64,000 nt of DNA from an uncultured Bacteroidales bacterium. Lineage in GTDB: Bacteria > Bacteroidota > Bacteroidia > Bacteroidales > UBA932. Under the pieces are notes generated by a model. The model did no database searches and had not been told where the DNA came from. It worked only from the letters and a program-made list of their open reading frames with translations. The translations under genes and the position numbers were made by a program. Shown piece after piece: positions 33,699 to 49,098 of the stretch (position 1 is the first letter of the stretch; the number at the start of each line of letters is the position of its first letter). The stretch spans positions 9,073 through 73,072 of the forward strand of contig CALUQM010000008.1 in the NCBI GenBank assembly GCA_944322925.1, written 5' to 3'.

Positions 33699-35120
33699 TT
33701 AAAGGCTTCCGAATCCGTCGAAATCCCAGATCGGATTGGCAGTTCTGGAAGAGTCCATCAGTTTTTTCAGTTTTTTTGCCAGTCTCGGATGAGATGAAAT
33801 GACATTCTCCGTTTCGCTTTCATCTTTTTCGAGATTGTACAATTCGTAATACGCCTTTTCAGGGGTCTTGCTGTCCAGTTCCACGAGTTTCCATCCGTTT
33901 CTGATGATGGCGCGTTTCCCTCCCTTTTCATGGAATTCGTAATACAGGAAGTCATGCTTTTTCTGATGCCCCTTTCCCGTCAGGCTCGGCAGATATGATA
34001 TTCCGTCCGTGTCTTCAGGTATTTCCGCACCGGTTATCTCGCAGACAGTAGGCATGAAGTCCCAGAATGCGGAAATATGGTCGGAGACCGTACCGGCCTC
34101 TATGACAGCCGGCCATTGGGCGACAAAAGGAGTATGGATGCCTCCGTCATACAGGTCTCTTTTCTTGCCTCTGTATATGGAATTGCTGTCGAAAAATTCA
34201 GGATCATGCCCTCCCTCGGAGTGGACTCCGTTGTCCGAAGAAAAGATTACAAGCGTATTTTCGTAGACACCCTTTTCTTTCAGCAGGTCCACGAGCCTGG
34301 CAATGTCCCTGTCGAGCCGGCTTACCATTGCGGCGTATGCAGCCCTCGGCTTAGGCTGGCTCTTGTATCCCTTGCCGTCCTTCGATCTGTTGACGAACGG
34401 GGTTTCCTTGAATTTCCCGTCATATTCTCCAAGATCAGGTACATCGAGATCGGCATGAGGGATAGTCGGGGTCAGATAGAGGAAGAAAGGGGTCCCTGCC
34501 GTCCTGTCGACAAAATCCAACGCCTTCTCCATGATCATGTCATGGGAATAGACCTTGTGGTCGAGGTAGACTTTCTCTCCGTTTTCCCACAGATAGTCGG
34601 GATAATAACTGTGCGCCCTGCCCTGTCCGAGATAACCGAAGAAATAATCGAATCCCTGCCTGTTCGGCTCGCCCTCGTTTCTCGGACCGCCGAGTCCCCA
34701 TTTGCCGACACAGGCGGTAACATAGCCTCTGGTCTTGAGGATTTCCGCTACAGTGACCTCTTCATCGGCAAGAGGCCAGTCGTATGAGTTCCCGTCGTAT
34801 GCCGCCTTGCCCTTGTTGCCTCTGATGAAGCTGTGTCCGGTGTGTTTCCCTGTCATAAGGACGCACCTTGACGGTGCGCTGACGGTCGAACCTGAATAAT
34901 GGCTCGTGAACAGGATTCCGTTTTCGGCGATATTGTCGATGGCCGGGGTCTTTATGTCTTTCTGTCCGTAGCAGCCGAGATCTCCTATGCCGAGATCGTC
35001 CGCAAGAATGAAAATCACATTCGGCAGGCCGGGTGCGGTATTCCGGTCATGGCTTTGGGCCGCCGATATTCCTATCGAGGCGGGCAGCAGTATTGCTGCA
35101 GGTAAAATGTTTTTGAGCAT
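33699..35120 (-). CDS. Ser-type sulfatase (S1, resembles S1_20)
   Basis: PNVIFILADDLG, STVSAPSRCVLMTGKH (S-x-P-x-R), GKWGLG, FSSDNG, KRDLYDGGI. Confidence 0.93.
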   Translation of the reverse strand: MLKNILPAAILLPASIGISAAQSHDRNTAPGLPNVIFILADDLGIGDLGCYGQKDIKTPAIDNIAENGILFTSHYSGSTVSAPSRCVLMTGKHTGHSFIRGNKGKAAYDGNSYDWPLADEEVTVAEILKTRGYVTACVGKWGLGGPRNEGEPNRQGFDYFFGYLGQGRAHSYYPDYLWENGEKVYLDHKVYSHDMIMEKALDFVDRTAGTPFFLYLTPTIPHADLDVPDLGEYDGKFKETPFVNRSKDGKGYKSQPKPRAAYAAMVSRLDRDIARLVDLLKEKGVYENTLVIFSSDNGVHSEGGHDPEFFDSNSIYRGKKRDLYDGGIHTPFVAQWPAVIEAGTVSDHISAFWDFMPTVCEITGAEIPEDTDGISYLPSLTGKGHQKKHDFLYYEFHEKGGKRAIIRNGWKLVELDSKTPEKAYYELYNLEKDESETENVISSHPRLAKKLKKLMDSSRTANPIWDFDGFGSL

Positions 35121-35137: not shown

Positions 35138-35295
35138 CAAATTTAAATTATAACGATTATTCTCCGGGGTAAAATTTCTGTCAAAAAATGGCATTAAATC
35201 TTATAACTTCCTTGAATTTTGTCGGTTTGAAACAAAATTGGCAGTTTTTTGACTGAAAAGAATATCCCGGGTATTTCAGGAAAAAAATATCTTTG
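35138..35295. promoter_or_regulatory. Divergent promoters, each with TTTTTTGACnGA whose GAC ends 34 nt upstream of the -7 element
   Basis: Minus: TAAATTTG 35138-35145 with motif C at 35180; plus: motif C at 35253 with TATCTTTG 35288-35295. Confidence 0.7.
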
Positions 35296-35306
35296 AAACA
35301 AAAAAA

Positions 35307-36506
35307 ATGAGACGCGAAGTTTACATTGTTGTACTGTCTGTCCTTGCCGTTGTCTCTGCAAATATTTCGCAGGCGCAGGAAAAGCGGAAACTTACGGCAG
35401 ACATTGTTCTCGGGCCTTATGTCCAGGCAGTTACCTCGGACAGTTTTACCGTAGTATGGAAAACCGACATGGATGCCGTGGCGTGGGTGGAGACAGCTCC
35501 GGACGACGGAACGCATTTCTTCGCGCAGGAGCGACCTGCATACTACCAGACGGTGGCAGGGAAAAGACCTGTAGGCAGATTGCACAGGGTTACCGTATCC
35601 GGTCTTGAACCGGGGACAGTGTACCGGTACCGGGTGATGCAGCAGGCGGTCCTGACTCCTCCGGACGAAAAGAGGATTGTGTTCGGCATCGCTTCGGGGA
35701 ACAATCCGTTCAGGCAGCAGCCCTATGAGGTCAGGACACTTGATCCCGATGCGGAGACATTGGACTTCGCTATAATCAACGACATACACGGGAAAGACCA
35801 GGTATTCAGAAAACTGATGACCGACATCCCGTCGGACAGCATCGATATGGTCTTTTTCAATGGAGACATGCTTTCCTCCATGGATTCCGAAAAGCAGCTG
35901 TTCGACGGTTACCTGAAATCCGCCGCCGAACTTTTCGCCGCGAATATTCCTTTTTACAATTCGAGGGGGAACCATGAAGGGAGGGGCATGTTTTCCTACA
36001 GGTATCTCGATTATTTCCCTACCTCTACCGGAGAAACATATTACATGGTCAGGCAGGGGCCTGCGGCGATTCTTGTCCTCGACTGCGGCGAAGACAAGCC
36101 TGACAGCGACGTCAGCTATTTCGGCCTTGCCGATTATGACAGTTTCAGGGAAAAGGAAGCCGAATGGCTAAGGAATACCGTATGTTCGGAAGAGTTCCGC
36201 AGCGCTCCCGTCAAGATCGCAGTATTGCATATCCCTGCTTCTACAGGCGGCTGGCACGGAAATGCCGAAATCAACAGACTCTTCATCCCGGTACTTGAAG
36301 AGGCAGGCATAGACCTGATGATCAGCGGACATATTCACAGATATTCTTATTCGGAACCCGGCGAGAGAGGTTGCTCCTTTCCCGTGCTGATAAACGGAGC
36401 CGATGAAAAACACTACTTCCATATTGCCGGAGACAGTATCAAGGCGGAACGTATCGACCAGGAAGGCACCGTACTGAATACTTTTGAAATCAATGTCGGA
36501 AATTAG
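35307..36506 (+). CDS. Secreted metallophosphoesterase with N-terminal FN3 domain (purple acid phosphatase-like)
   Basis: Signal peptide; GPYVQ, VTVSGLEPGTVYRYRV; NDIHG, GDML, GNHE, GHIH calcineurin-like motifs. Confidence 0.88.
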   Translation: MRREVYIVVLSVLAVVSANISQAQEKRKLTADIVLGPYVQAVTSDSFTVVWKTDMDAVAWVETAPDDGTHFFAQERPAYYQTVAGKRPVGRLHRVTVSGLEPGTVYRYRVMQQAVLTPPDEKRIVFGIASGNNPFRQQPYEVRTLDPDAETLDFAIINDIHGKDQVFRKLMTDIPSDSIDMVFFNGDMLSSMDSEKQLFDGYLKSAAELFAANIPFYNSRGNHEGRGMFSYRYLDYFPTSTGETYYMVRQGPAAILVLDCGEDKPDSDVSYFGLADYDSFREKEAEWLRNTVCSEEFRSAPVKIAVLHIPASTGGWHGNAEINRLFIPVLEEAGIDLMISGHIHRYSYSEPGERGCSFPVLINGADEKHYFHIAGDSIKAERIDQEGTVLNTFEINVGN

Positions 36507-36516
36507 CATGTCGCGT

Positions 36517-37959
36517 ATGAAAAAGTTTTTGCCTGTTTTATTTTTCCTTATTTCCCTGCACGGGATGTCTGCCAGAGATCCATGGCAGGTGACCGTTTAT
36601 CCGGAAGCGGAGACAGCTCCAGTAAGCGAACTGTTCTGGGGGACCAATTTCCTTTTCTGGATTGAAGACGATGCCGCCCTGGAGGACGGCAAGATAGAAA
36701 AGGCCATGAAGGACCTTCCGGTAAGGCTGCTGCGGTATCCTGGCGGTACCGTAGCCGACAATTTCCACTGGGAGACGAATCTTCTCGACAATCATTTCAT
36801 GTTCCCGTATGAAGAGGGGGAGGCTGAAAGCGATTTCGATGAATTCATGGCTTTCTGCAAAAAGACTGGTGCGGAGCCGCTGCTTGTCGTGAACACGCAG
36901 TCGTGGGCTTTGAAGAACGATATCGAAGGCGGTGCACAGGAGGCTGCAGCCTGGGTAAGATACTGCAGGGAAAAGGGATATGACGTAAAATACTGGGAAA
37001 TCGGAAATGAAACCTACTGGCATCCTGTCATGACTGCAAGGGAGTACGGCCGCCTGGCGAACGTTTATGCGGAAGCGATGAAGGCCGCGGATCCCGACAT
37101 TGTTCTCAGTGTCAACGGAGGCTGGGACATAAACATGACCGGCAACAAGGAGAGGACACCTCGGGAGGATCTCGAATATATCGAGGAAAAGTACGGACAG
37201 ATTTCAAGCGTGGAGGACTACAAAAGGCTGAAAGAATATGCGGATTCGGTCAAAGCCACGCCATGGACTGTCGGAGAAGACAAATGGTGGCATGACCTTA
37301 TTACGGAATGCGGGCAGAATATCGACATGATATCCGTCCACTGGTATTATCATGACAATGTCATCAGGCATATAGACAAAAAGCTTCTCGAACTGCAGGA
37401 TTACCTGAAGACACTCGTGCCTCAGAAGGACTACCTGCTGTGCCTATCTGAATTCAACTGCAATACTCCGGAATTCGAATACAGGGTTGCGGGCTTTGCC
37501 GAATCGGTCGGCAGGTTTCTGAATGCCGGGACAGACCTTGCCTGCTTCTGGCCTTTCCGTATCGGAGGCAATCCCACTGCCAGGTCCAACAGAAACATGT
37601 TGTCGCTCGAAAGCAAGGATGTCCAGTATCCTTATCAGATTTTCAGTCTTTTCCAGAAAAAACTCACGGGTTCCATGATCAGATGCGACTGTCCGGACGA
37701 CCTTTATGCCTTTGCCTCGAAGGACGGGGACAGAATGGTCCTGGTCGTTTCCGGAAGACGGCTGGACGCGTCGGCTGAAGTGACAGTAAGGCTTGCCGGA
37801 GGGGAGAGGGCGGAATTGACAGGGGCAGAAAAATATATCCCGCAACCTCGGACCATAGGGGTGGAAGCGTGCGGGATACCTGCAACAGTGTCGGGAAAAA
37901 GAATCACTTTTGAAGTTGAGCCCCTTTCTTTTGTCCTGATCGAGATGGATCTCCGATAA
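36517..37959 (+). CDS. Secreted clan GH-A-like glycoside hydrolase, family unassigned (GH51/GH79-like motifs)
   Basis: Signal MKKFLPVLFF; LLRYPGG, FDEFMAFC, YWEIGNETYW (acid/base), LSEFN (candidate nucleophile); start could be 36508. Confidence 0.7.
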   Translation: MKKFLPVLFFLISLHGMSARDPWQVTVYPEAETAPVSELFWGTNFLFWIEDDAALEDGKIEKAMKDLPVRLLRYPGGTVADNFHWETNLLDNHFMFPYEEGEAESDFDEFMAFCKKTGAEPLLVVNTQSWALKNDIEGGAQEAAAWVRYCREKGYDVKYWEIGNETYWHPVMTAREYGRLANVYAEAMKAADPDIVLSVNGGWDINMTGNKERTPREDLEYIEEKYGQISSVEDYKRLKEYADSVKATPWTVGEDKWWHDLITECGQNIDMISVHWYYHDNVIRHIDKKLLELQDYLKTLVPQKDYLLCLSEFNCNTPEFEYRVAGFAESVGRFLNAGTDLACFWPFRIGGNPTARSNRNMLSLESKDVQYPYQIFSLFQKKLTGSMIRCDCPDDLYAFASKDGDRMVLVVSGRRLDASAEVTVRLAGGERAELTGAEKYIPQPRTIGVEACGIPATVSGKRITFEVEPLSFVLIEMDLR

Positions 37960-38866
37960 TTTTCATGTTTTTCATCCATTCGACGGCGATGTCTTTCCAG
38001 ATGTCCATGGGTTTTCCGTTGTCGATGTATCCCATGCCGTGTTTCCCCGTCCTGAAAATGTGAATTTCGGCGGGAACGCCGGAGGCTTTCAGCTTGTCGT
38101 AGAATTCGAGTGCTCCGTCGACAGGAGCGGCAGGATCATCGGTACAGTGGGATATGAACGTCGGCATGGCGGTGCTGTCGATATGGTTTGCAGGATTGCA
38201 GAATTCAATGCTTTCTTCGTCCGGATCAGGTCCGAGGATTTTTTTCAGAGTCCATGTATTCCTGTCGTTTATCACGGCTTTTACCAGAATCAGAAAGTCC
38301 GGTCTCGATGAATAATGGTCCAGTTCGTGAGGAGAGTCCGGGTCCGCTTCCAGAGTATGTACTGCGAGCATGGCGGCAAGATGGCCTCCGGCAGACGAGC
38401 CTGTGATTCCGGTCATTTCCGGATTTATGCCGAATCTCGATGCGTTCATGCGCACCATTCTGACCGCCTGCTGTCCGTCAGTTACCGGAATCGACGGGTG
38501 TCCGTTCGGAAGACGGTATTTTACTACGACTGCGGCAAGCCCGTTGGCCGTATAGAATTCCGCCGCGCGGATGCCGGCGTCCCGGATATGGATGTTGGCA
38601 TACCCTCCGCCCGGAAATATCACTATGCACGGATAGCCGTTCTCCGGTTTCGGCGTTTCCGGAAGGAAGACCATGATTTCGGCTTCGGTGATATTGTAGC
38701 ATATACCTTTTTCCGATGTATATTCTTTTTCCGTTATTCCGTTCGAGGATATTTCCGAAGTATATTCTATCGGAAGGACGAAATCCGGTTCGGGAAGTCC
38801 GCTCCCGGCTGCTGCCGTCATCGAGGCGACGGCGGCACTTAGCAATATCGTGATTTTCTTTTTCAT
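37904..38866 (-). CDS. Secreted alpha/beta-hydrolase esterase (carbohydrate esterase-like)
   Basis: IFPGGGY, VVKYRLP, GSSAGGH (Ser), DDP (Asp), KHGMG (His). Confidence 0.88.
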   Translation of the reverse strand: MKKKITILLSAAVASMTAAAGSGLPEPDFVLPIEYTSEISSNGITEKEYTSEKGICYNITEAEIMVFLPETPKPENGYPCIVIFPGGGYANIHIRDAGIRAAEFYTANGLAAVVVKYRLPNGHPSIPVTDGQQAVRMVRMNASRFGINPEMTGITGSSAGGHLAAMLAVHTLEADPDSPHELDHYSSRPDFLILVKAVINDRNTWTLKKILGPDPDEESIEFCNPANHIDSTAMPTFISHCTDDPAAPVDGALEFYDKLKASGVPAEIHIFRTGKHGMGYIDNGKPMDIWKDIAVEWMKNMKIIGDPSRSGQKKGAQLQK

Positions 38867-38881
38867 TGCATGCGGCGATTA

Positions 38882-40876
38882 TTATTCTGCAGGCTCAGGG
38901 ACAAAAGGGAGAGGTCTCAGCGGTCTTGTCATTTTGTTGGTCTTGAGTCCTGTTTTGTAGACTTTCGGTCCGTAAAGGTCTTCGGCAGGTATGAGCCCGA
39001 GATTCACGAGGACTTTCCTTTCCCCGATACCGTCACCGGCGCCGGGCATTTTCTTCCTTTCCTTCTGAAGATAGGCTTCGGAAGCCTGCTCGAGAGACGA
39101 GATCACATAATCCGGAAATTCCGTTCTTGCTTCAGGGTCGATGGACAGGACTTCCAGGGCCGGAGTAAGTTTGCGGTTCCGCGACATCTCCCTGAATGCG
39201 ACATCTTTCATTTCAGTGTGGCAAAGGGCGAACGCCGCTTCCTGGGCTGCAAGGTAATCTTCTCCCGCAAGCATTTTCACAAGTTCTTCCAGCCCGTCGG
39301 AAAGTTCTCCCTTTGCGGCGAGTACGGCCATGTTCACCGTAGCCCAGAACTTGAATTCGCTGCCGTCGCTGCCGTTGATTACGGATTTCAGATAAGGAAT
39401 GTCGTCTTCGGTCACACAGGCGGTCATTTCGGCGAGGGAGTACAGTTTCTCGATATCGTACCCTTCAGCCCGTACCTTTTCGTAAGGAGAGCCTTCCTGC
39501 CGCGCTGTCATCGGCAGAAGTCCGAGATCCCCGGTGTCTCTGATATGTTCCGAAAGCGCTTTCCTGAATTTGTCTACCATGCCGGCATATTCCGGATTTC
39601 CTATAAGGTCGTTCAGTTCGAACGGATCTGCCGAGAGATCATAGAACGACTCGGCAGGGGCGTATTCGTACGGTCTCGATGTCGTTGCGGAGCATTCTCC
39701 CGCAAAATAAGCCTTGTCCCAGTACAGATTGGCCGGCATTTCCCACTGGAAATAATTGAAAAGGGCGTCTTTCTTGTACGGTATGTAATATCTGATGTAT
39801 TTGAAACGGCCGTCGCTGATCGTCCTCGACGGTATGTAGTGCAGCGACCTGTTGGTCATGTATCCGATCTGGTATTCGCGTTCTGCGGTGTCGTATTTCC
39901 CGAGAAACGGCAGTCCCTGCATGTAGGCCGGGGGTTCTATTCCGGCAGCGCTCAGGACGGTGGCGCCCATGTCGGCGAACGATACGAGCCTGTCGCAGTC
40001 TCCTGCCGGCATTTTCGACAGGTGCTGCCATTTTGGCGGCAGGTAGACCACCATCGGTACCCTGAAACTCGATTCGTATGAAAATGCCTTGCCACGTGGA
40101 AGACAGCCTCCGTGATCGCTGAATACGAACACTATCGTGTTGTCGTCCAGCCCTTTTTCCTTGAGGTCATCGAGAAATATCCTTACCCACTTGTCTATGT
40201 CGTTGACGCCTTCTATATGGAAGGCATAGTCCGACCTGACTTCAGGTATGTCGGGTACGTGAGGCGGGAGATCGAGCCCGTCAGGGTCGATTCCTTCCGC
40301 CGCAAAGTCACGCCGTCCGTCGAGATGTACGGAGGTCAGCCTGCTCATGTGCGTCAGTCCGCTGTTGAATACGGCGAAGAACGGCTGTCCGGGCTTCCTG
40401 CCGGGACTGTTGTATGTCGCGGTATTGCTGCATTCGTCCCAGCAGCTTCTGTTGTCGGTTTTCGTGTTGTAGTCCGTTTTCTGGTTGTTCGTGCAGTAAT
40501 ATCCCGCATCCCTGAGGTATTGTGGAAAAAGGATATTGTCCGGAGTGGCCACCTTTCCTCTGTGCCAGTCCATGGCAAATGTCGTAGAGTAGCATCCCGT
40601 AATCAGTGTGGATCTGGACGGAGAACTCTGCGGACCGCACGAGTAGGCATTGTTGAATTTGATGCCGATCCGGGCGAGACTGTCTATTACCGGCGTATCG
40701 GCAGCCCCGTTGCCGTAGCAGCCGAATTCATAGCTGCTCGTGTCTTCGAAGGTAAGCCAGAGGATATTCGGCCTTTCCTGTGTCTCCGGCCCACTTTCAT
40801 TGTTGTTTCCTGCCCATGCTGCCGGAATTGCTGCAAGGGCGGCGAGTGAAGAAAAATAAAATTTTGCGGTATTCAT
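38882..40876 (-). CDS. Ser-type sulfatase (resembles S1_8) with C-terminal helical/HEAT-like extension
   Basis: PNILWLTFED, QSSPSRSTLITG, KTDYN, VFSDHGG; start uncertain (40876/40882); TACTTTTG -7 element on minus at 40909-40916. Confidence 0.88.
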   Translation of the reverse strand: MNTAKFYFSSLAALAAIPAAWAGNNNESGPETQERPNILWLTFEDTSSYEFGCYGNGAADTPVIDSLARIGIKFNNAYSCGPQSSPSRSTLITGCYSTTFAMDWHRGKVATPDNILFPQYLRDAGYYCTNNQKTDYNTKTDNRSCWDECSNTATYNSPGRKPGQPFFAVFNSGLTHMSRLTSVHLDGRRDFAAEGIDPDGLDLPPHVPDIPEVRSDYAFHIEGVNDIDKWVRIFLDDLKEKGLDDNTIVFVFSDHGGCLPRGKAFSYESSFRVPMVVYLPPKWQHLSKMPAGDCDRLVSFADMGATVLSAAGIEPPAYMQGLPFLGKYDTAEREYQIGYMTNRSLHYIPSRTISDGRFKYIRYYIPYKKDALFNYFQWEMPANLYWDKAYFAGECSATTSRPYEYAPAESFYDLSADPFELNDLIGNPEYAGMVDKFRKALSEHIRDTGDLGLLPMTARQEGSPYEKVRAEGYDIEKLYSLAEMTACVTEDDIPYLKSVINGSDGSEFKFWATVNMAVLAAKGELSDGLEELVKMLAGEDYLAAQEAAFALCHTEMKDVAFREMSRNRKLTPALEVLSIDPEARTEFPDYVISSLEQASEAYLQKERKKMPGAGDGIGERKVLVNLGLIPAEDLYGPKVYKTGLKTNKMTRPLRPLPFVPEPAE

Positions 40877-41058
40877 GTTCATCAGGAAAAGATTAAACAG
40901 CTTCATGACAAAAGTACGAATCAGAAAATTGAAAAACGTGTAAAAAATTTTCAATAATTGCATATAATTTTTCCAAAAAGACAAAAAGGCGACCGGGAGC
41001 ATTAAATTTTGTTATTTTTACAATCGCATAACCGATAATCGCGAACTGTTCCGATATT

Positions 41059-44000
41059 ATGACAAGGTCTGAAATATACGCTCTTCTGGCGGCAGCCATG
41101 ATTTCCCTGACGGGTGCGGTCTCCTCGTCGGCCGAGCCTGGAAACGGAGATCTGAAACTCTCATTTACATATTACGGTGTTTTCGACGGCCTGCCGTCCA
41201 ATGAAATCAACAGGATAACCCAGGACTCTCTCGGATTCATCTGGTGTGCTACCAACAACGGCCTTGTCCGTTTCGACGGTTATGAATTTTCCGAGTTCCG
41301 TTCCAGCTACAAGCATCCGTCTTTCTTCCCGAACAATTATGTCAGGGACATGGAAAGGCTGGGCAGCGGGAAAATGTGTCTGGTCCTGTCCGATCAGGCG
41401 GCAATATTCGACAAGACGGAATCCAGGACGGAAGTGATAAACGATACCGTCATTTCTTCCCTGAAACTGAAGGCATTTGTTCCGGTGACGAAGACCGTAT
41501 TCATTCTCGGCGGAGAGGACGGAGGTGTCATATATGATTCGGAAACGGGAGTGGTATCGGACCGGATAAGCTGCAACGGAGAGCCTGTCAGGCATATCCG
41601 GCAGATATACCGGGACAGCGAAGGCAATATATGGCTGGGAACCTGGAGGCGCGGCATATATCTCATGAGGGCCGGATCGGATACTTTCGTCAAAATCAAG
41701 AGAAAGGGACTTCCGGGGAACATCACGGTGACGAAATTCGTAGAGGACAAAGACGGAAATCTCTTCGTCGGCACATGGGGAGACGGCCTGTTCTGTCTGT
41801 CGGGCAAGAAACGGGTGCTGTCATATTCATGGCCCAAGTCGGATGCCTACCATCTCGACAGGAACATAATATATGATATCGCCGTCGATGATAAAGGTAT
41901 GATATGGACTGGAACTCCGGGCGGACTGAGGATTTTCTCTCTGGCAGGCGGCCGGTTTTCCACCGTAAGCTATGTGAATGCCGAAACGAGGAGAGAGGAA
42001 GACCTGCATGAAGTAAGGGCCGTGTTCAAGGATAATGACGGCAATATATGGCTGTCGGACTATGGAAAAGGGCTTGTTACCATAAGCCATGAGATGCCGG
42101 GCATCCGGGAAATAGATCCGCGGGACATGGGCGTGAACTACAGTGTGGTTACGGCTCTTTACAAGCAGGGCGACATTCTGTGGATAGGAATAAGGGGGCT
42201 GAATTTCATCAGGTACGACATGCGCGCTGAGAAAATACTGCCGGATGCCGGTTTCATGAGGCAGTTCGATCCCGAATGCAATGCCGTCGTGAGCTTCGTC
42301 CCGGTTCCGGAGAAGGACCTGCTCTTCCTGTCGACCCGTTATCACGGAGTGTACATGCTGAAGATGAACGCAGGCGAGGTCACCGATATCCGCTACTTCG
42401 ATACCGGTGTCCCCGGAATCCGCAACGAGTTCACGAACACGGCTGCGAGGGATACGGAAAACAATATCTGGGTCGGTACGAATTCCGGGCTTTCGATACT
42501 TCGCTGTTCTCCGGATGGAGGATACGAAGTCATGAATCCGGCAGAACTCAATTCTTATCTGAAAAACTGCGTCGTCGAGACTGTTTTCCCCGATTCCAAA
42601 GGCAATGTCTGGGTCGGTACGACAAATTCCGGGCTTTACCGGATCAGATATGATGCGGACACAGGGACCATAGAGGAATTCCGCAGGTACTGCGTGGAGA
42701 ACGGGACTGTAAGCAACGACAGGATTCAGACCATTTTCGAAGATTCCAAAGGCCGGTTGTGGACCGGAACCAACGGCGGCGGACTGAATGTCTACAGGAG
42801 CGGGGAGGATACATTTGAAATCATCCGCAGCATGGACCTTTTCCCGTCTGACCAGATATTCGCCCTCGCCGAGGACGAATCCGGCAAGCTGTGGATATCG
42901 ACTGGAAAGGGCGTGACCTGCTACGATCCCGATGCCCGGGGAGGCAGTCTGTGGAATATCGGCATAGATGTCGGCCTGAAGAATCTGTCATTTATCAAGA
43001 ATGCCGTTCTGGAAGAGGCGGGAACCATTGTTTTCGGAGGATATGACGGACTGAGCATCTTTACTCCGGACATGATAAGCCAGGAGGGAGAGGTGCCTGT
43101 GCCGAGCATAATAGACGTGCAGATACTCAACGAGTCTCTTTTTACTCTTCCCGAAAAGGAAAGAATACGGGCCGCGGCCAAACTCCCTCCGTATTCGGAA
43201 AGGATAGTTCTCGGACACAAGGACATAAGTGTCAGTTTCAAGTACGTTTCTCCGACATTCAGAAACGAGGAGCTTGTCAAGTATGCCTACAGGCTTTCAG
43301 GGCTTGAAAAAGGCTGGAACTATGTCAAGTCCGACCAGAGGACGGTGACATACAATTATCTGAAACCGGGAAATTATGTCTTTGAAGTCAAGGCCGGAAA
43401 TGCAGCAGACATGTGGAATCCGGTAACGGCTTCCGTGGATATCGTGATCAGGCCTGCTCCGTGGCTGACGGTATGGGCGAAGCTGGGATATCTCATCGTG
43501 TCTCTGCTTGCGGGCTACGGTGTTTTCGTGACGGTACGCAACCGTGCGCGTCTGCGTCAGGCTCTGAGGATAGAACAGATGGAGCGTCTCAAATCCGATG
43601 AGGTCAACAACGCCAAGCTGATGTTCTTTACCAACGTTTCCCATGAGCTGTTCACTCCTATTACCGTGATGTCGTGCTCTCTGGAGAAACTGATAGAAAA
43701 GGAGCCGGAGAATCTTGCCCTTCACAAGATCATGCGTTCGAATCTGAACCGCCTGATGCGTCTTCTCCAGCAGATAATGGAGTTCAGGAAGGCTGAATCA
43801 TCCAATCTGAAACTGCGGGTATCGGAAATCGACATCGTGCCTTTCCTGAAGAAGATTTGCGATGAAAACTTCTCTCCGCTTGTCGTTGACAGGAATATAA
43901 GGATGATATTCTCTTCTGCCTCCGAACATATAAAAGGCTATGCCGATACCGACAAGCTCGACAAAATCGTATACAATCTCATATCCAATGCCTACAAATA

Positions 44001-45159
44001 CAACCGTGAAGACGGAAAAGTCTTCGTTTCCGTCGGCGACGAGACGGATAACGGACGCAGATTTGTCGTGATTTCCGTAAAGGATACGGGCTACGGTATA
44101 GAAAAAGACAGGCTGAAGGACCTGTTCAAGAGATTCTACGAAGGGGATTACAGGAAATTCAATACCAAAGGTACGGGAATTGGCCTGTCTCTGACGAAAG
44201 ATCTTGTCGACCTTCACCGCGGCACCATAAAGGTAGACAGTACGGAAGGGGAGGGTACGGTATTTACGGTAAGGCTGCCTCTCGACAAGGATGCGTACAG
44301 CCCGGATCAGATAGATTCCGGAATCATCGCCCAGAGCGATACGGACAGGCCGGGACATGTCGAAAGGGCAAAGGAAGCCCATGATGAAAATACGCCGACG
44401 CTGATGATAGTCGAAGACAACGAGGACCTGCGCCTTGTCATGAAAAATATTCTGGAACCGACCTACCGTATTTTTACAGCAAGCAACGGAAGGCTGGCTC
44501 TGGATATCCTCAAGGACGAGGATGTCGATCTGGTCATAACGGATTATCTCATGCCGGAGATGGACGGTATCGAACTGTGCAGGGCGATAAGGTCGGATAT
44601 TACCATATCCCATCTGCCTGTGATAATGCTCAGTGCAAAGACAGAAAAAGAGAGCAAGCTCAAATCATTCGAGTCCGGGATCGACGCCTATGTCACCAAG
44701 CCTTTCGAAGTGAATCTGCTTGTCGCTCAGGTCGACGGAATGATAGCGAACAGGAGGAAACTCTACGACAAGTTCCGGTCGGAAGAGAACATGCCGCCGG
44801 ATCTTCTTATCAGCACGGATATGGACAAACGCTTCATCGACAAGGCCATAAGGCTGATCGAAAGCCATATTTCCGACGCGGACTACAACATCGATGTCTT
44901 CAACGACGAGATGAACATGTCATATTCCACCCTTTACAGGAAAATCAAGGGAGTTACGGGCATGTCTCCAAAAGAATTTATCCGGAATATCCGCTTCAAG
45001 TATGCCTGCCGGCTGCTGCTGGAAAAAACCGCGACTGTTTCCGAAGTAGCTTTCATGGTAGGATTTACGGATGCAAAATATTTCAGCATTTCTTTCAAAA
45101 AGGAATTCGGTATGACACCGAGCCAGTATATAGCCGAACATCGTAAAAAGAACGAATAA
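41059..45159 (+). CDS. Hybrid two-component system regulator (beta-propeller sensor, Y_Y_Y, HisKA/HATPase, REC, AraC)
   Basis: GLPSNEINRITQD..GFIW repeats, YAYRLSG, SHELFTP, GTGIGLSL, VITDYLMPEMDG, VAFMVGFTDAKYFSISFKKEFGMTPSQY. Confidence 0.97.
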   Translation: MTRSEIYALLAAAMISLTGAVSSSAEPGNGDLKLSFTYYGVFDGLPSNEINRITQDSLGFIWCATNNGLVRFDGYEFSEFRSSYKHPSFFPNNYVRDMERLGSGKMCLVLSDQAAIFDKTESRTEVINDTVISSLKLKAFVPVTKTVFILGGEDGGVIYDSETGVVSDRISCNGEPVRHIRQIYRDSEGNIWLGTWRRGIYLMRAGSDTFVKIKRKGLPGNITVTKFVEDKDGNLFVGTWGDGLFCLSGKKRVLSYSWPKSDAYHLDRNIIYDIAVDDKGMIWTGTPGGLRIFSLAGGRFSTVSYVNAETRREEDLHEVRAVFKDNDGNIWLSDYGKGLVTISHEMPGIREIDPRDMGVNYSVVTALYKQGDILWIGIRGLNFIRYDMRAEKILPDAGFMRQFDPECNAVVSFVPVPEKDLLFLSTRYHGVYMLKMNAGEVTDIRYFDTGVPGIRNEFTNTAARDTENNIWVGTNSGLSILRCSPDGGYEVMNPAELNSYLKNCVVETVFPDSKGNVWVGTTNSGLYRIRYDADTGTIEEFRRYCVENGTVSNDRIQTIFEDSKGRLWTGTNGGGLNVYRSGEDTFEIIRSMDLFPSDQIFALAEDESGKLWISTGKGVTCYDPDARGGSLWNIGIDVGLKNLSFIKNAVLEEAGTIVFGGYDGLSIFTPDMISQEGEVPVPSIIDVQILNESLFTLPEKERIRAAAKLPPYSERIVLGHKDISVSFKYVSPTFRNEELVKYAYRLSGLEKGWNYVKSDQRTVTYNYLKPGNYVFEVKAGNAADMWNPVTASVDIVIRPAPWLTVWAKLGYLIVSLLAGYGVFVTVRNRARLRQALRIEQMERLKSDEVNNAKLMFFTNVSHELFTPITVMSCSLEKLIEKEPENLALHKIMRSNLNRLMRLLQQIMEFRKAESSNLKLRVSEIDIVPFLKKICDENFSPLVVDRNIRMIFSSASEHIKGYADTDKLDKIVYNLISNAYKYNREDGKVFVSVGDETDNGRRFVVISVKDTGYGIEKDRLKDLFKRFYEGDYRKFNTKGTGIGLSLTKDLVDLHRGTIKVDSTEGEGTVFTVRLPLDKDAYSPDQIDSGIIAQSDTDRPGHVERAKEAHDENTPTLMIVEDNEDLRLVMKNILEPTYRIFTASNGRLALDILKDEDVDLVITDYLMPEMDGIELCRAIRSDITISHLPVIMLSAKTEKESKLKSFESGIDAYVTKPFEVNLLVAQVDGMIANRRKLYDKFRSEENMPPDLLISTDMDKRFIDKAIRLIESHISDADYNIDVFNDEMNMSYSTLYRKIKGVTGMSPKEFIRNIRFKYACRLLLEKTATVSEVAFMVGFTDAKYFSISFKKEFGMTPSQYIAEHRKKNE

Positions 45160-45165
45160 CCGGTA

Positions 45166-45216
45166 TATTTTGACCGATTTGTGACCATAGAAAAAGGGTG
45201 CCATTGTTTAATTTTG
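45166..45216 (+). promoter_or_regulatory. Promoter with TATTTTGACCGA motif and TAATTTTG -7 element
   Basis: Motif C at 45174, -7 element 45209-45216, gap 34 nt identical to the two promoters at 35.1-35.3 kb. Confidence 0.7.
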
Positions 45217-45241: not shown

Positions 45242-46672
45242 ATGGGAAAGATATTGAGGACAATCGGGCTCCTTTCCGCCGGCTCCGTTCTGGTTCCGGC
45301 GTTGAATCAGGCCCGTGCCGAACAGACGGAAAAACCGAATATTCTGCTGCTTCTTATAGATGACATGGGGTACAGGGATACAGGTTTCACCGGAAGCGAT
45401 TTTTACGAGACCCCGGTGATAGATTCCCTGGCATCCCGCGGCATGGTGTTCAACCAGGCATACGCGTGTGCCGGGAACAGCGCTCCGAGCCGCTCATGTC
45501 TTATTTCCGGCCAGTTCACTCCGAGAAACGGAGTCTATGCGGTGTACCACACCAAACGCGGCCCGAAAGAATACATGAGGCTGGAGCCTTATCCCAATGA
45601 AAGCAACCTTCCTCTGGACTGTTATACGATTGCCGAAGCCATGAGGGATGCCGGCTATGCTACCGGAATGGTAGGAAAATGGCATCTCGGGGATTCCGGG
45701 CATTCCCCGGCCATGCAGGGATTCATGATGGCAAAGGAAGAAAAACCCCAGAGCATGGAGGAATTCAAGCGGACGAATGATCCCAAAAACATGTTCAGCG
45801 AGGTCGATACCATGATAGATTTCATCGAGAAATCCGTGGACGAGGGCAAGCCGTTCTTCGGCTACCTCCCGTTCCATGCAGTCCATACCGCATGGCAGGC
45901 GAGGCAGGACTATGTGGATTATTTCTCCGGCAAGAAACCGGGAAAACTGCACAAACAGCCGCTGTATGCGGCGATGATCAGGAATCTGGATGACGCCATC
46001 GGAAAACTGGTCGACAAAATAAACGAACTCGGTATATCGGACAACACCATAATAATATTTACTTCGGACAACGGCGGGGTCCCTAAAACTTCCCAGGCTC
46101 CGCTGCGCGGATTCAAGGGCTGTCTTTACGAAGGAGGCATAAGGGTTCCGATGTTTTTTTACTGTCCGGCCAGAATTCAGGCCGGATCTACGGATCTTCC
46201 GGTAGCAAACGTGGATTTCTTCCCTACTGTAGTCGATATGGCAGGAGGAGATATCCCTGAAGACAAGGTCCTGGACGGCATTTCCCTTAAAGGACTTCTG
46301 TATGGAGAAAAGGAAATGACGGAGCGGCCAGTCCTGTACTGGCATTTCCCGGGCTATCTCGACAAGCCGTGTCCGGGAGGCAGGGACGAACTGTTCCGGC
46401 AGAGGCCTTCGACCGTAATGAGAAAAGGCGACTGGAAACTGACTCTGTATTATGAAGAATGGATGCTCGACGGCGGCTGGGAGGCAAGGGATACCAATCA
46501 CTGCACGGAACTGTACAATCTGAAAGACGACATGTCCGAGACGCACGACCTGTCTTCCGAATGTCCGGAAATACGTGATGCCATGCTTGCGGAAATGCTG
46601 CAGTGGCTCAGGGACAATGATGTGGATATGCCTACGGTAAAACAACAGAACGGTAAAACAGCAGAACGATGA
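45242..46672 (+). CDS. Ser-type sulfatase (resembles S1_16)
   Basis: PNILLLLIDDMG, GNSAPSRSCLISG, GKWHLG, FTSDNGG, KGCLYEGGIRVP. Confidence 0.93.
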   Translation: MGKILRTIGLLSAGSVLVPALNQARAEQTEKPNILLLLIDDMGYRDTGFTGSDFYETPVIDSLASRGMVFNQAYACAGNSAPSRSCLISGQFTPRNGVYAVYHTKRGPKEYMRLEPYPNESNLPLDCYTIAEAMRDAGYATGMVGKWHLGDSGHSPAMQGFMMAKEEKPQSMEEFKRTNDPKNMFSEVDTMIDFIEKSVDEGKPFFGYLPFHAVHTAWQARQDYVDYFSGKKPGKLHKQPLYAAMIRNLDDAIGKLVDKINELGISDNTIIIFTSDNGGVPKTSQAPLRGFKGCLYEGGIRVPMFFYCPARIQAGSTDLPVANVDFFPTVVDMAGGDIPEDKVLDGISLKGLLYGEKEMTERPVLYWHFPGYLDKPCPGGRDELFRQRPSTVMRKGDWKLTLYYEEWMLDGGWEARDTNHCTELYNLKDDMSETHDLSSECPEIRDAMLAEMLQWLRDNDVDMPTVKQQNGKTAER

Positions 46673-49098
46673 AAAAGATATTGCTTGCCCTGTCGGTACT
46701 TCTTGCAGGCGTTGTGGCCGCAAATGCCCAGATTACTTTCGGAACACCTGTCAGGATAAATGACGGGTGGAAATTCCGCCTCGACTCCATCGCTGACTAT
46801 TCAGGCGTAAAAGTCCGCAATTCCGGATGGCGGACAGTGAATCTTCCGCACGACTGGAGTGTGGAAAGCTGCATGTCCGATGAATATTACAGTTGTACCG
46901 GGTATCTTCCCGGCGGCATCGGATGGTACAGGAAGTCTGTGACGATACCCGAGTCTGAATCCGGGAAAAAACAGTATCTGTATTTCGGTGGCGTCTATTG
47001 CAACAGCGAGGTATGGGTCAACGGACACAAGGCCGGTTACCGGCCGAACGGATATGTTTCCTTCATTTATGATATCACACCTTATGTGAAATTCGGCGGC
47101 GAAAACGTCATTGCCGTAAAAGTGGACCATTCCGACCAGGCAGACTCCAGATGGTACACCGGATCCGGAATCTACCGCGACGTCTTCCTCGTATCGAGCG
47201 GATATGTCCATATCGACAACTGGGGGATTTTCGTGAAGACGGCTTCCGTAAAGTCAGGAGTGGCCGAACTCGATGTCACTCTTAAACTCGTCAATGAGAC
47301 GGACGCCGATGCCGCCCTTACCGTAAGGCATTGTCTTTACAGAAAGGGAGGCTCCGACGTAGTGGCTTCCGCGGCTTCGGAAGTCACGGTATCCGCCGGC
47401 GGGCGGGCTGAGGACTATTGCCGGATTTCGGTTCCTGATCCGAAACTGTGGAGCGTGGACGAGCCTTCACTTTACCGCCTCGAGACGACAGTTACCGACA
47501 CTGACGGGAACTTCGTCGACGGGACCACGACAGTTACCGGAATCAGGACCGTAAGGTTCGATGCGGACAAGGGCCTTTTCCTCAACGGAGTAAACATGAA
47601 GATGAAGGGAGTCTGCCTGCACCATGATGCGGCGTCTCTCGGGGCCGCAGTGCCTGAAAGCGTGTGGAGAAGGAGGCTGATGACCTTGAAGGAGCTGGGA
47701 GTCAACGCGATAAGGACAAGCCACAACATGCAGGACGAAATGTTGTACGACCTGTGCGACGAACTCGGTTTCCTGGTCAAGGACGAAGCCTTCGACGAAT
47801 GGGAATTCCCCAAGAGAAAATGGCTCATAGGGTGGAACGTAGGCAAGAATCCGGGATTTCAGGGATATGCGGAATATTTCGAGGAATGGGCGGAACAGGA
47901 TCTCAGGACAATGGTGGAAAGGGACAAGAACCACCCGTCGGTAATCTTGTGGAGCATAGGCAATGAGGTCGATTATCCGAATGACCCTTATTCTCATCCG
48001 ATACTTGACAAGGAAGGCATAAACCAGAAGACGATTCCGGGGTACAAGCCGGAAAAGCCCGCTGCGGAAAGAATAGGTTTCATTGCGGAGAGATTCGTGA
48101 AAATCGTCAAGGAGATAGACACTTCAAGAGCCGTTACCGGTGCCATGGCCGGCGTGGTAATGTCCAATTACACCAAATATCCGTATGTTCTCGACGTGAC
48201 AGGCTACAATTATACCGAAAGCCGGTATCAGTCCGATCATCTCCAGTATCCCGAAAGGATAATTTACGGTAGCGAAAACAGGCATCCGTATCCGGACTGG
48301 ACTGCCGTCAGGGACAATGAACACATATCCGGACAGTTCCTGTGGACAGGGATAGACTATCTCGGGGAAGCCGGACGTTTTCCGTCGAGAGGAATGGCGG
48401 CAGGCCTTCTCGACCTCGGAGGTTTTGTAAAGCCGAGAGGAATGTACCGAAAGACCCTGTGGTCCGACGAGCCGGCTGCGTATGTCGGAACGATAAGGAA
48501 AGACAGAATAAGGAAGAATACCGCCTATTTCGACCTGGAACCGGTCTGGAATTATGAACCCGGCGATACTGTCAGGGTAGCATCCTTCTCGAACTGCGAC
48601 TATTCGAGGCTGCTTGTCAACGGAAAGGAAATAAATGCCGCACCGGGATATGACGCCAATTCGAATTCCCTTTTCTGGGATGTCGTCTATGAACCCGGGA
48701 CGCTGAGGCTGGAAACCTGGTCCAAGGACGGTTCCGCCACCGGCTATGAAATCAGGACCTACGGCCGCCCTGTGAAACTGGTCGCGTTTGCCGACCGTCT
48801 GACCATGTCTGAAGGCGGTGACGTGGTTCATGTCGAGGTCAATTTCGTGGATAAGAACGGCACAAGGGTGCTCGATGCCATGGACGATGTAAAATGCACG
48901 GTGGAGGGTGCCGGAGAGCTGCTGCGTCTCGAGAATGCGTCTCCGAAATACACCGGACCTTATATTACGGATTCTATGCCGATGTACAGGGGGCGTATTC
49001 TGGCATACGTGAAATCTTCCGACAGGCCCGGTGCGGTGACAGTCAGATTTACGGCAGAGACTGGTGAAGAATGTTCAGTGAAAATCAATGTAAGGTGA
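46669..49098 (+). CDS. GH2 beta-galactosidase-like enzyme
   Basis: NLPHDWSVE, DSRWYTGSGIYRDV, AIRTSHN, WSIGNEVD, GSENRH, LWTGIDYLGEA. Confidence 0.93.
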   Translation: MKKILLALSVLLAGVVAANAQITFGTPVRINDGWKFRLDSIADYSGVKVRNSGWRTVNLPHDWSVESCMSDEYYSCTGYLPGGIGWYRKSVTIPESESGKKQYLYFGGVYCNSEVWVNGHKAGYRPNGYVSFIYDITPYVKFGGENVIAVKVDHSDQADSRWYTGSGIYRDVFLVSSGYVHIDNWGIFVKTASVKSGVAELDVTLKLVNETDADAALTVRHCLYRKGGSDVVASAASEVTVSAGGRAEDYCRISVPDPKLWSVDEPSLYRLETTVTDTDGNFVDGTTTVTGIRTVRFDADKGLFLNGVNMKMKGVCLHHDAASLGAAVPESVWRRRLMTLKELGVNAIRTSHNMQDEMLYDLCDELGFLVKDEAFDEWEFPKRKWLIGWNVGKNPGFQGYAEYFEEWAEQDLRTMVERDKNHPSVILWSIGNEVDYPNDPYSHPILDKEGINQKTIPGYKPEKPAAERIGFIAERFVKIVKEIDTSRAVTGAMAGVVMSNYTKYPYVLDVTGYNYTESRYQSDHLQYPERIIYGSENRHPYPDWTAVRDNEHISGQFLWTGIDYLGEAGRFPSRGMAAGLLDLGGFVKPRGMYRKTLWSDEPAAYVGTIRKDRIRKNTAYFDLEPVWNYEPGDTVRVASFSNCDYSRLLVNGKEINAAPGYDANSNSLFWDVVYEPGTLRLETWSKDGSATGYEIRTYGRPVKLVAFADRLTMSEGGDVVHVEVNFVDKNGTRVLDAMDDVKCTVEGAGELLRLENASPKYTGPYITDSMPMYRGRILAYVKSSDRPGAVTVRFTAETGEECSVKINVR

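What the first reader, a model, noticed from the sequence alone, without database searches (positions are those of the whole stretch)
35138..45216. Shared upstream motif at a fixed 34-nt distance in three promoters of the locus: candidate HTCS operator
Seen: P(35307, plus) TTTTTTGAC-tga...N34-TATCTTTG; P(35120, minus) TTTTTTGAC-aga...N34-TAAATTTG; P(45242, plus) TATTTTGAC-cga...N34-TAATTTTG. The consensus is TTTTGACnGAWW, with the C exactly 34 nt before the -7 element in all three (C at 35253, 35180 and 45174). The fourth promoter (minus, -7 at 40909-40916) has only a degenerate TATTGAA at 33 nt. Known: HTCS AraC domains activate from sites just upstream of the -33 region. Inference: this is the binding site of the 41059-45159 regulator and defines its regulon directly from sequence.
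Basis: partly seen in the sequence, partly recalled or inferred. Interest (0 to 1): 0.7.

Follow-up and report, generated by a model that had tools for sequence, protein, structure and literature searches.

The report
Conserved tandem operator of a sulfatase-locus regulator
The shared TTTTGAC motif is real, and it is the promoter-proximal half of a conserved two-part DNA site that sits at a fixed distance before every operon of a sulfatase/glycosidase gene cluster, so it is most likely where the cluster's own hybrid two-component regulator binds – a good new example of a known kind of switch.

Summary
TTTTGAC lies 34 nt upstream of TAnnTTTG at 35253(+), 35180(-) and 45174(+), and TATTGAA lies 33 nt upstream at 40950(-). 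Only 26 TAnnTTTG boxes occur in the 64 kb window. The four with TTGA[CA] at 33-34 nt are exactly the four operon promoters of the sulfatase/GH2 locus around the HTCS gene (41059-45159).

Nine related loci (HTCS 48-73% identical) carry the same motif at the same 33-34 nt distance before most non-HTCS operons there, while the flanking DNA is not conserved. In 621 kb of unrelated Bacteroidota loci it occurs at 4 of 549 boxes. A weight matrix built only from the relatives ranks the window's sites 1, 2, 3 and 6 of 127,958 positions.

The motif is only the proximal half-site. A second TGA[AC] core lies 21-22 bp upstream in 17 of 23 sites. This tandem-repeat layout is the one predicted for Bacteroides HTCS operators and footprinted for BT4124. 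The proximal half-site (about 22 bp, TTTTTGAMAKAWTTnTAnMC) ends where a -33 element would sit, which suggests activation.

This is a new member of a known kind. Binding by the HTCS is inferred, not shown.

The parts
41059..45159 (+). Hybrid two-component system (HTCS) regulator, 1366 aa. It has a signal/TM segment, Reg_prop propeller plus Y_Y_Y sensor, a TM segment near residue 808, HisKA (SHELFTP), HATPase_c, a receiver domain (Asp in DYLMPEMDG at 1162) and an AraC-type HTH_18 DNA-binding domain.
   Evidence: Pfam hits; motifs and hydrophobic segments; orthologues P0001-P0007
35246..35267 (+). Promoter A, proximal half-site TTTTTGACTGAAAAGAATATCC. The C (position 0) is at 35253, 34 nt before the -7 box.
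   Evidence: PWM 8.9, rank 6 of 127,958; homologous site in L056 (5485+) and L054 (5449+)
35224..35245 (+). Promoter A, distal half-site with core TTTGAA at 35226-35231, 22 bp upstream of the proximal core.
35288..35295 (+). Promoter A, -7 box TATCTTTG. It drives the metallophosphatase (35307-36506) and the ASD1/GH79-like gene (36484-37959).
35166..35187 (-). Promoter B, proximal half-site TTTTTGACAGAAATTTTACCCC (minus strand). Position 0 is at 35180, 34 nt before the -7 box.
   Evidence: PWM 20.3, rank 1
35188..35209 (-). Promoter B, expected position of the distal half-site. In this genome it is degenerate (TTATAAG), whereas L056 has TTTGAC and L054 has TATGAA at the same place.
35138..35145 (-). 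Promoter B, -7 box TAAATTTG (minus strand). It drives the sulfatase (33699-35120), GH2 (31226-33661) and GH2 (28187-31213).
40936..40957 (-). Promoter P4, proximal half-site TTATTGAAAATTTTTTACACGT (minus strand). Position 0 is at 40950, 33 nt before the -7 box. The TATTGAA variant is conserved in L054, L055 and L056.
   Evidence: PWM 15.5, rank 3
40958..40979 (-). Promoter P4, distal half-site with core TTTGGA at 40972-40977 (one mismatch), 22 bp upstream of the proximal core.
40909..40916 (-). Promoter P4, -7 box TACTTTTG (minus strand). It drives the sulfatase (38882 to about 40876/40882) and the esterase (37904-38866).
45167..45188 (+). Promoter P3, proximal half-site ATTTTGACCGATTTGTGACCAT. 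The C is at 45174, 34 nt before the -7 box. It begins 8 nt after the HTCS stop codon.
   Evidence: PWM 19.3, rank 2; conserved at the same place in L003 and L054-L059
45145..45166 (+). Promoter P3, expected distal half-site. Only GAA is kept (AAAGAA at 45147-45152), and it overlaps the last HTCS codons and the stop.
45209..45216 (+). Promoter P3, -7 box TAATTTTG. It drives the sulfatase (45242-46672), GH2 (46669-49098), sulfatase-esterase fusion (49103-51388), sulfatase (51401-53254) and sulfatase (53251-54645).

Best explanation
The TTTTGAC motif is the promoter-proximal half of a bipartite operator.

Anatomy: the operator consists of two direct-repeat half-sites, with consensus about TTTTTGAMAKAWTTnTAnMC, whose cores lie 21-22 bp apart (two helical turns). 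The proximal core sits 33-34 nt upstream of the -7 box TAnnTTTG. If the TSS lies about 5-7 nt after the box, the proximal half-site covers roughly -54 to -33. Its 3' end (the 'MC' at +11/+12) then falls where a -33 TTTG element would normally be, and the distal half-site covers roughly -76 to -55.

Mechanism (inferred): the membrane-bound HTCS dimer encoded at 41059-45159 senses an oligosaccharide from a sulfated, probably beta-galactoside-rich glycan through its periplasmic propeller domain. It autophosphorylates, which releases its two AraC-type DNA-binding domains. These occupy the two half-sites on one face of the DNA and recruit sigma-ABfr RNA polymerase to promoters that lack a -33 element.

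Regulon: four operons in the window carry the site, 12 genes in all: six sulfatases (one of them fused to an esterase domain), three GH2, one separate esterase, a metallophosphatase and an ASD1/GH79-like protein.

Shown: the anatomy, the locus specificity and the evolutionary conservation of the site. Inferred: that the HTCS is the binding protein, and that binding activates.
For: (1) Exact anatomy in the window.
(2) Specificity. 4 of 26 window -7 boxes carry the motif, and they are the four locus promoters. In 621 kb of unrelated Bacteroidota loci the count is 4 of 549, with 0 for the stricter TWTTGAM form and 0 for the bipartite pattern. Across the window plus related loci it is 20 of 134, Fisher p = 1e-11.
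(3) Phylogenetic footprint. In L003, L054-L059 and L001 (HTCS 48-73% identical), 19 further sites hold the motif 33 or 34 nt from the box. They include a SusC-like gene in L056, GH59 genes in L057/L058 and a transglutaminase-like gene in L054. Information content drops to about 0 in the flanks.
(4) Tandem layout. A TGA[AC] core ends 22 nt (13 sites) or 21 nt (4 sites) upstream of the proximal core in 17 of 23 sites, against at most 2 at any other offset (nominal p = 1e-23; the sites are not independent).
(5) A PWM built without window sequence ranks the window sites 1, 2, 3 and 6 of 127,958.
(6) The HTCS is the only DNA-binding protein found in the annotated loci (window and L054-L059). Its DNA-binding domain is 70-78% identical across orthologues, with near-invariant HTH helices STLYRKIKG and DAKYFS.SFKKEFG.
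(7) Literature. HTCS operators are predicted as direct repeats about 21 bp apart (PMC3878776). DNase footprints of BT4124 show half-sites 21-22 bp apart (PMC13292587). In the published alignments the proximal repeat ends about 19-21 nt before TAnnTTTG, as here.
(8) The B. thetaiotaomicron BT0267-BT0268 intergenic region has the same half-site (TTTTGAATGATT), one tandem pair 22 bp apart, and TTTTTGAA 33 nt before CACTTTTG.
(9) No conserved -33 TTTG lies between the site and the box, as expected for activator-dependent promoters.
Against: - There is no binding or expression experiment. The metatranscriptome contigs are too sparse to place a TSS or show co-regulation.
- In the window itself only promoter A has a clean distal half-site. 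P4 has one mismatch, and P3 and B are weak.
- The only footprinted HTCS (BT4124) repressed its targets when the free receiver-DBD fragment was expressed, so activation is not assured.
- A similar half-site serves a 32%-identical HTCS locus in B. thetaiotaomicron, so the motif class is not unique to this regulator.
- Orthologous promoters are not statistically independent, so the p-values are overstated.
Confidence: 0.8

Rival explanations
1. The same conserved tandem site is bound by the HTCS but acts as a repressor or fine-tuning site rather than as an activator site.
For: BT4124, the only HTCS with footprinted sites, lowered expression of its target genes when its active receiver-DBD was expressed (PMC13292587).
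Against: - The distance to the -7 box is fixed at 33-34 nt across all 23 sites.
- No -33 element is present.
- The proximal half-site abuts the polymerase-binding region. This geometry is typical of AraC/XylS activators (general knowledge). Repressor sites are not usually held at a fixed upstream phase.
Confidence: 0.1
2. The site is bound by another transcription factor encoded elsewhere in the genome, such as a global carbohydrate regulator or a paralogous HTCS with a similar DNA-binding domain, and not by the adjacent HTCS.
For: A near-identical half-site and geometry occur at the BT0267/BT0268 locus of B. thetaiotaomicron, whose HTCS is only 32% identical. This shows that the motif class is shared between different regulators. 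Nothing here demonstrates binding.
Against: - The motif travels with the HTCS orthologue in all loci examined.
- It is absent where the metallophosphatase orthologue sits without the HTCS (L015).
- It is absent from 50 unrelated loci.
- No other regulator gene was found in the annotated loci.
- CRP-like global regulators bind palindromes, not 21-22 bp direct repeats (general knowledge).
Confidence: 0.07
3. The motif is a general promoter element of this organism, such as an UP-like or extended upstream element read by RNA polymerase, or simply a chance A/T-rich similarity.
For: The motif is T-rich and sits upstream of promoters. TTTG is also the -33 consensus of Bacteroidota (PMC7366714).
Against: - 22 of the 26 -7 boxes in the window lack it.
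- 545 of 549 boxes in control loci lack it, and the spacing histogram in controls is flat.
- The spacing of 33-34 nt from the box is far beyond the -33 position.
- The independent PWM ranks and the shuffles rule out chance.
Confidence: 0.03

Closest known systems
Predicted operator of B. thetaiotaomicron HTCS_Aga-1 (BT0267, arabinogalactan PUL; Ravcheev et al. 2013, RegPrecise)
   Same: - The half-site sequence is nearly the same: TTTTGAATGATT and TATTGAACGATT, against TTTTGACCGATT, TTTTGACTGAAA and TATTGAA here.
- One tandem pair lies 22 bp apart.
- TTTTTGAA lies 33 nt upstream of a CACTTTTG box.
- The site lies directly downstream of the HTCS gene, in front of the next operon.
- My PWM scores the three sites 15.5-17.1.
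   Different: - The regulators are only 32% identical overall and 45% identical in the DNA-binding domain.
- The target genes differ: a SusC-led arabinogalactan PUL there, a sulfatase/GH2 locus without SusC/D in the window here.
- The organisms differ: Bacteroides there, a chicken-gut Candidatus Cryptobacteroides here.
- The BT0267 site is itself only a prediction.
Footprinted binding sites of HTCS BT4124 (HTCS_Rgu-1) at bt4114 and bt4108 (J Biol Chem 2026, PMC13292587)
   Same: - Two half-sites about 21-22 bp apart are occupied by the two AraC domains of a dimeric HTCS.
- Several operons of one locus each carry a site.
- In the published alignment the proximal repeat ends about 21 nt before TAnnTTTG.
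   Different: - The half-site sequence differs (CAAAAAATAC...ACAC).
- BT4124 has two full sites per promoter.
- BT4124 behaved as a repressor in the assay used.
AraC/XylS-family activator sites (AraC I1-I2, RhaS, XylS Om; MarA marbox), from general knowledge and not tested here
   Same: - The half-sites are asymmetric and about 17-20 bp long, with two contact blocks about one helical turn apart (here TGAM at -3..0 and MC at +11/+12).
- The half-sites are arranged as direct repeats 21 bp apart.
- The proximal one reaches the -35-equivalent region.
   Different: - The polymerase partner is the Bacteroidota sigma-ABfr, with a -7/-33 promoter.
- The DNA-binding domains are tethered to a membrane-bound histidine kinase.

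Membership tests
Bacteroidota hybrid two-component system (HTCS) regulator | Single polypeptide with a periplasmic Reg_prop/Y_Y_Y sensor, a TM segment, HisKA plus HATPase_c, a receiver domain and a C-terminal AraC-type HTH | tested here: met
   All domains are found by Pfam. Hydrophobic segments lie at residues 6-24 and about 805-826, His sits in SHELFTP and Asp in DYLMPEMDG.
HTCS operator (tandem half-sites) | Direct repeat of two similar half-sites about 21-22 bp apart | tested here: met
   17 of 23 sites have a TGA[AC] core 21-22 bp upstream of the proximal core, against at most 2 at any other offset. In the window the repeat is clean at promoter A, has one mismatch at P4, and is weak at P3 and B.
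HTCS operator (tandem half-sites) | Found before the operons of the locus that encodes the HTCS, and conserved in orthologous loci while the flanks diverge | tested here: met
   Nine related loci, 23 sites, flank information about 0.
HTCS operator (tandem half-sites) | Proximal half-site ends about 19-21 nt upstream of the -7 box, as in published Bacteroides HTCS alignments | tested here: met
   The half-site extends to +14 and the box starts at +34/+35. Compare BT0367, BT2818, BT4114 and BT4116.
HTCS operator (tandem half-sites) | Physically bound by the AraC domains of the cognate HTCS | not testable with these tools
   Needs EMSA, footprinting or DAP-seq.
Sigma-ABfr promoter of Bacteroidota | -7 box TAnnTTTG shortly upstream of the gene start | tested here: met
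   Boxes lie 11-25 nt before the start codons. Consensus from PMC7366714.
Sigma-ABfr promoter of Bacteroidota | -33 TTTG element about 19-21 nt upstream of the -7 box | tested here: not met
   No conserved TTTG at that position. The operator's 'MC' occupies it instead. This is consistent with activator-dependent promoters.
Sigma-ABfr promoter of Bacteroidota | Transcription start just downstream of the box | tested here: inconclusive
   Only sparse metatranscriptome contigs were found, none ending at the promoters.
General promoter or UP-like element | Present at most promoters irrespective of gene function | tested here: not met
   Absent from 22 of 26 window boxes and 545 of 549 control boxes.

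The most novel reading that the evidence does not exclude
The fixed geometry may be a general positional rule for HTCS-activated promoters. That geometry is a proximal half-site core 33-34 nt before TAnnTTTG, replacing the -33 element, with a partner half-site 21-22 bp further upstream. The TTTGA(A/C) half-site class may be shared by distantly related HTCSs: this Cryptobacteroides regulator and B. thetaiotaomicron BT0267 are 32% identical. If both hold, HTCS regulons in uncultured Bacteroidales could be read from sequence by anchoring on the -7 box. Paralogous HTCSs with the same half-site class could also cross-regulate each other's loci.
Probability: 0.3. Interest if true: 0.5.

Novelty: new member of a known kind. 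Interest (0 to 1): 0.35.

Why it matters
HTCSs are a major class of regulators of polysaccharide utilization loci in gut Bacteroidota. Operators have been predicted for about 16 B. thetaiotaomicron HTCSs, and, in the papers read here, only BT4124 has footprinted sites.

Here an operator, its two-part anatomy, its phase relative to the promoter and a 12-gene regulon can be read from sequence for an uncultured chicken-gut Candidatus Cryptobacteroides. This gives a concrete, cheap target for EMSA, DAP-seq and reporter tests. It also offers a handle for finding the missing SusC/D transporter and the sulfated glycan that the locus degrades. It does not change the known picture of how HTCSs work.

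Tried and rejected
- JGI metagenome scan with the HTCS: only distant paralogues were found and nothing useful.
- RNA evidence for TSSs or co-expression: one metatranscriptome (X25) holds a few short contigs inside coding regions, and none reach the promoters.
- Second half-site 21 bp downstream of TTTTGAC, overlapping -33: not supported. Positions +15 to +24 carry no information. The partner lies upstream.
- The CCCGG box seen after the motif at promoters A and B, and in L003: this is the 'MC' contact block at +11/+12 of the half-site. At promoter A it is shifted by 2 nt, which lowers that site's score. It is not a separate element.
- E. coli-type -35/-10 reading of TTGACA: no -10 lies at 17 bp, and the organism is a Bacteroidota with -7/-33 promoters.
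- Metallophosphatase orthologue outside the locus (L015, 68% identical): it has no motif, which shows that the motif follows the locus and not the gene.
- L001/L002 (48% HTCS): the HTCS and the next sulfatase are 7 nt apart with no promoter, and only one site was found (L001 4200-).
- First exact search for the BT0268 upstream sequence copied from the supplement PDF failed because the PDF text has an extra base. A shorter pattern worked.
- A world-wide pattern scan for the bipartite motif was not run. The expected chance matches in 596 Gb (hundreds to thousands) would swamp the few true sites.
Full report
**1. Observation**

- Promoter A (plus): TTTTTTGAC ends at C 35253, and 34 nt later comes TATCTTTG (35288-35295), with the ATG at 35307.
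- Promoter B (minus): GTCAAAAAA at 35180-35188 is TTTTTTGAC on the minus strand. 34 nt separate it from CAAATTTA (35138-35145), the reverse complement of TAAATTTG. The start codon is at 35120.
- Promoter P3 (plus): TATTTTGAC ends at C 45174, then 34 nt, then TAATTTTG (45209-45216), with the ATG at 45242.
- Promoter P4 (minus): TATTGAA at 40950-40956, 33 nt from TACTTTTG (40909-40916).

The consensus TTTTGACNGAWW occurs three times in 64 kb, only at these sites (0.25 expected). The full spaced pattern occurs three times against none in shuffles. Both tests are post hoc, so I looked for independent ones.

**2. Context**

The motif-bearing promoters head the four operons of a locus built around a hybrid two-component system gene at 41059-45159. 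That protein has Reg_prop/Y_Y_Y, HisKA, HATPase_c, Response_reg and HTH_18/AraC domains. It also has the phospho-acceptor His, the receiver Asp and two hydrophobic segments.

The four operons are:
- B: sulfatase 33699-35120, GH2 31226-33661, GH2 28187-31213.
- A: metallophosphatase 35307-36506, ASD1/GH79-like 36484-37959.
- P4: sulfatase 38882 to about 40880, esterase 37904-38866.
- P3: sulfatase 45242-46672, GH2 46669-49098, sulfatase-esterase fusion 49103-51388, sulfatases 51401-53254 and 53251-54645.

No SusC/D pair lies in the locus. LepA is 97-98% identical to MAGs that include Candidatus Cryptobacteroides merdigallinarum. The DNA is found in chicken-gut metagenomes.

**3. Is it more than chance, and is it a general promoter feature?**

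The window holds only 26 TAnnTTTG boxes on both strands. Four have TTGA[CA] 33-34 nt upstream, and they are exactly the four locus promoters. None of the other 22 boxes has it. The stricter T[AT]TTGA[CA] form occurs 0 times, and the spacing histogram is flat. For the window alone, Fisher p = 2e-4. The motif is therefore neither chance nor a general promoter element.

**4. Comparative evidence**

The HTCS has a compact orthologue group: 99, 67, 64, 61, 53, 53 and 52% identity, after which the next hit drops to 37%. To these add a 73% orthologue (L003) and two at 48% (L001/L002). I fetched their contigs, and L054-L059 are largely syntenic. Between the HTCS stop codon and the next sulfatase, all eight loci carry (T/A)(T/A)TTGAC or ATATGAC 33 or 34 nt before TAnnTTTG, while the rest of the spacer is unalignable.

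The same holds elsewhere:
- At the divergent sulfatase promoter (L054, L056).
- At the ASD1-gene promoter (L054, L056).
- At the sulfatase promoter facing the HTCS, where TATTGAA is conserved in L054, L055 and L056. The window's 'degenerate' fourth site is therefore a conserved variant.
- Before a SusC-like gene in L056, GH59 genes in L057/L058, an extra sulfatase operon in L058, a transglutaminase-like gene in L054 and the minus operon of L059.

Altogether 20 of 134 boxes in the window plus related loci carry the motif, against 4 of 549 in controls (p = 1e-11). Orthologous sites are not independent, so this p-value is overstated.

A position weight matrix built only from the non-window sites ranks the window's four sites 1, 2, 3 and 6 of 127,958 positions. 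Where the metallophosphatase orthologue sits outside such a locus (L015), the motif is absent.

**5.

I anchored the 23 sites on the C/A of TGAM. The information profile shows a proximal element of about 22 bp: TTTTT-G-A-M-A-K-A-W-T-T-n-T-A-n-M-C (positions -7 to +14). The flanks are uninformative.

A second TGA[AC] core ends 22 nt (13 sites) or 21 nt (4 sites) upstream of the first, that is in 17 of 23 sites. No other offset has more than 2. The operator is thus a tandem direct repeat with a period of two helical turns.

In the window the distal half-site varies in quality:
- Promoter A: clean (TTTGAA, 35226-35231).
- P4: one mismatch (TTTGGA, 40972-40977).
- P3: reduced to GAA, where it overlaps the last HTCS codons.
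- B: degenerate.

With the box's T at +34/+35, a -33 TTTG element would fall at about +12 to +15. There the sites carry the conserved 'MC' of the operator and no TTTG.

**6. What it most likely is**

Ravcheev et al. predicted operators for 16 B. thetaiotaomicron HTCSs. All are direct repeats of two sites, on average 21 bp apart, read as two monomers on one face of the DNA (PMC3878776). A 2026 study footprinted BT4124 and found half-sites marked by hypersensitive positions 21-22 bp apart (PMC13292587). In the published alignments the proximal repeat ends about 19-21 nt before TAnnTTTG (BT0367, BT2818, BT4114, BT4116), the same phase as here.

The HTCS is the only DNA-binding protein found in the annotated loci (window and L054-L059). 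Its AraC domain is 70-78% identical, with near-invariant helices, across orthologues that share the motif.

The best explanation is therefore that the two AraC domains of the HTCS dimer bind the two half-sites and activate sigma-ABfr promoters that lack a -33 element. Shown: sequence anatomy, specificity and conservation. Inferred: the identity of the binding protein (confidence about 0.8) and the sign of regulation. Activation is favoured by the fixed phase and the missing -33 element, but BT4124 acted as a repressor in its assay.

**7. Closest known case**

The supplement of PMC3878776 shows a similar sequence before BT0268. I retrieved the B. thetaiotaomicron locus. The BT0267 (HTCS_Aga-1) to BT0268 spacer holds TTTTGAATGATT and TATTGAACGATT 22 bp apart, and TTTTTGAATGATT 33 nt before CACTTTTG. 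My matrix scores these three sites 15.5-17.1, and they are the top hits of the 8 kb locus.

BT0267 is only 32% identical to the window's HTCS overall and 45% identical in the DNA-binding domain. So the half-site class and the geometry are shared by distant HTCSs. This strengthens the HTCS assignment, but it also warns that the motif alone may not separate paralogous regulons in a whole genome.

**8. Rivals**

- A general or UP-like promoter element, or chance: contradicted.
- Another regulator binding the site: cannot be excluded without experiments, but disfavoured by strict co-occurrence with the HTCS gene and by the direct-repeat layout.
- Repression instead of activation: remains possible.

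**9. Dead ends**

The JGI metagenome scan gave no close relatives. RNA runs were too sparse for TSS mapping. A related strain (X19) differs at 35220, 35222 and 35306 and has an inserted A after 35299. None of these changes touches a half-site core or a -7 box.

**10. Verdict**

This is a new member of a known kind of cis-regulatory site. It is a useful, directly testable annotation for an uncultured gut bacterium, but not a surprise for the field.

Noticed in passing
L142 6700-6840 (B. thetaiotaomicron BT0267-BT0268 spacer) and L142 2390-2440 (minus strand): The half-site class TTTTGAATGATT recurs five times around BT0267. Three copies lie in the spacer before BT0268 (two of them 22 bp apart, one 33 nt before CACTTTTG), and two lie before the divergent upstream gene. 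This suggests that distant HTCSs share a half-site class and promoter phase.
   Followed up: partly
window 38882-41002 (minus strand): The mechanical ORF (706 aa) starts upstream of its own -7 box (40909-40916). The real start is probably the ATG at 40882 or 40876 (MNTAKFYFSSLAALAA..., a signal peptide), in line with the 652-653 aa orthologues in L054 and L055.
   Followed up: partly
window 35307-36506, compared with L054 5435-6961 and L056 5541-6998: In the window a metallophosphatase gene sits between promoter A and the ASD1/GH79-like gene. In L054 and L056 the same promoter drives the ASD1-like gene directly. The metallophosphatase orthologue lies elsewhere in L059 and, outside any such locus, in L015. 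The gene looks like a mobile cargo within the regulon.
   Followed up: partly
window 49103-51388; L056 7006-9798: Sulfatase and esterase (BD-FAE) domains are fused in one 761-aa protein in the window. In L056 the separate sulfatase and esterase of the P4 operon are fused instead (930 aa). The repeated fusion hints that desulfation and deacetylation act on the same substrate.
   Followed up: no
window 28187-54645; L056 23097 onward; L001 15474-20548: The window's locus has no SusC/SusD pair. In L056 a SusC-like gene with the same operator follows the last sulfatase. In L001/L002 two ORFs of SusC/SusD-like size (1072 and about 613 aa; not annotated) follow the first sulfatase. The transporter of the window's organism is probably encoded elsewhere and should carry the operator.
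   Followed up: partly
L059 10001-10150: The HTCS gene call in L059 (1422 aa) is over-extended at its 5' end. The extension contains the operator (TTTTTGAT, 33 nt from TATCTTTG) and the promoter of the divergent sulfatase operon. The real start is probably the ATGACAAGATAT... about 150 nt downstream.
   Followed up: partly
window 45080-45101 (minus strand; core at 45094): A PWM hit (14.5) lies on the antisense strand inside the HTCS DNA-binding-domain coding sequence (KYFSISFKK). It has no -7 box or partner half-site, so it is most likely a by-product of coding constraint.
   Followed up: no
window 35220, 35222, 35299, 35306: A related strain in run X19 (about 97-98% identical) carries two T>C changes, one inserted A and one A>C in the divergent intergenic region. 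All of them fall outside the half-site cores and the -7 boxes.
   Followed up: no
L057 2012-4132 and L058 2082-4154: In the 53% orthologous loci a GH59 (galactocerebrosidase-like beta-galactosidase) gene heads the operator-bearing operon facing the HTCS. This adds to the GH2-rich content and points to a sulfated beta-galactoside-containing substrate.
   Followed up: no
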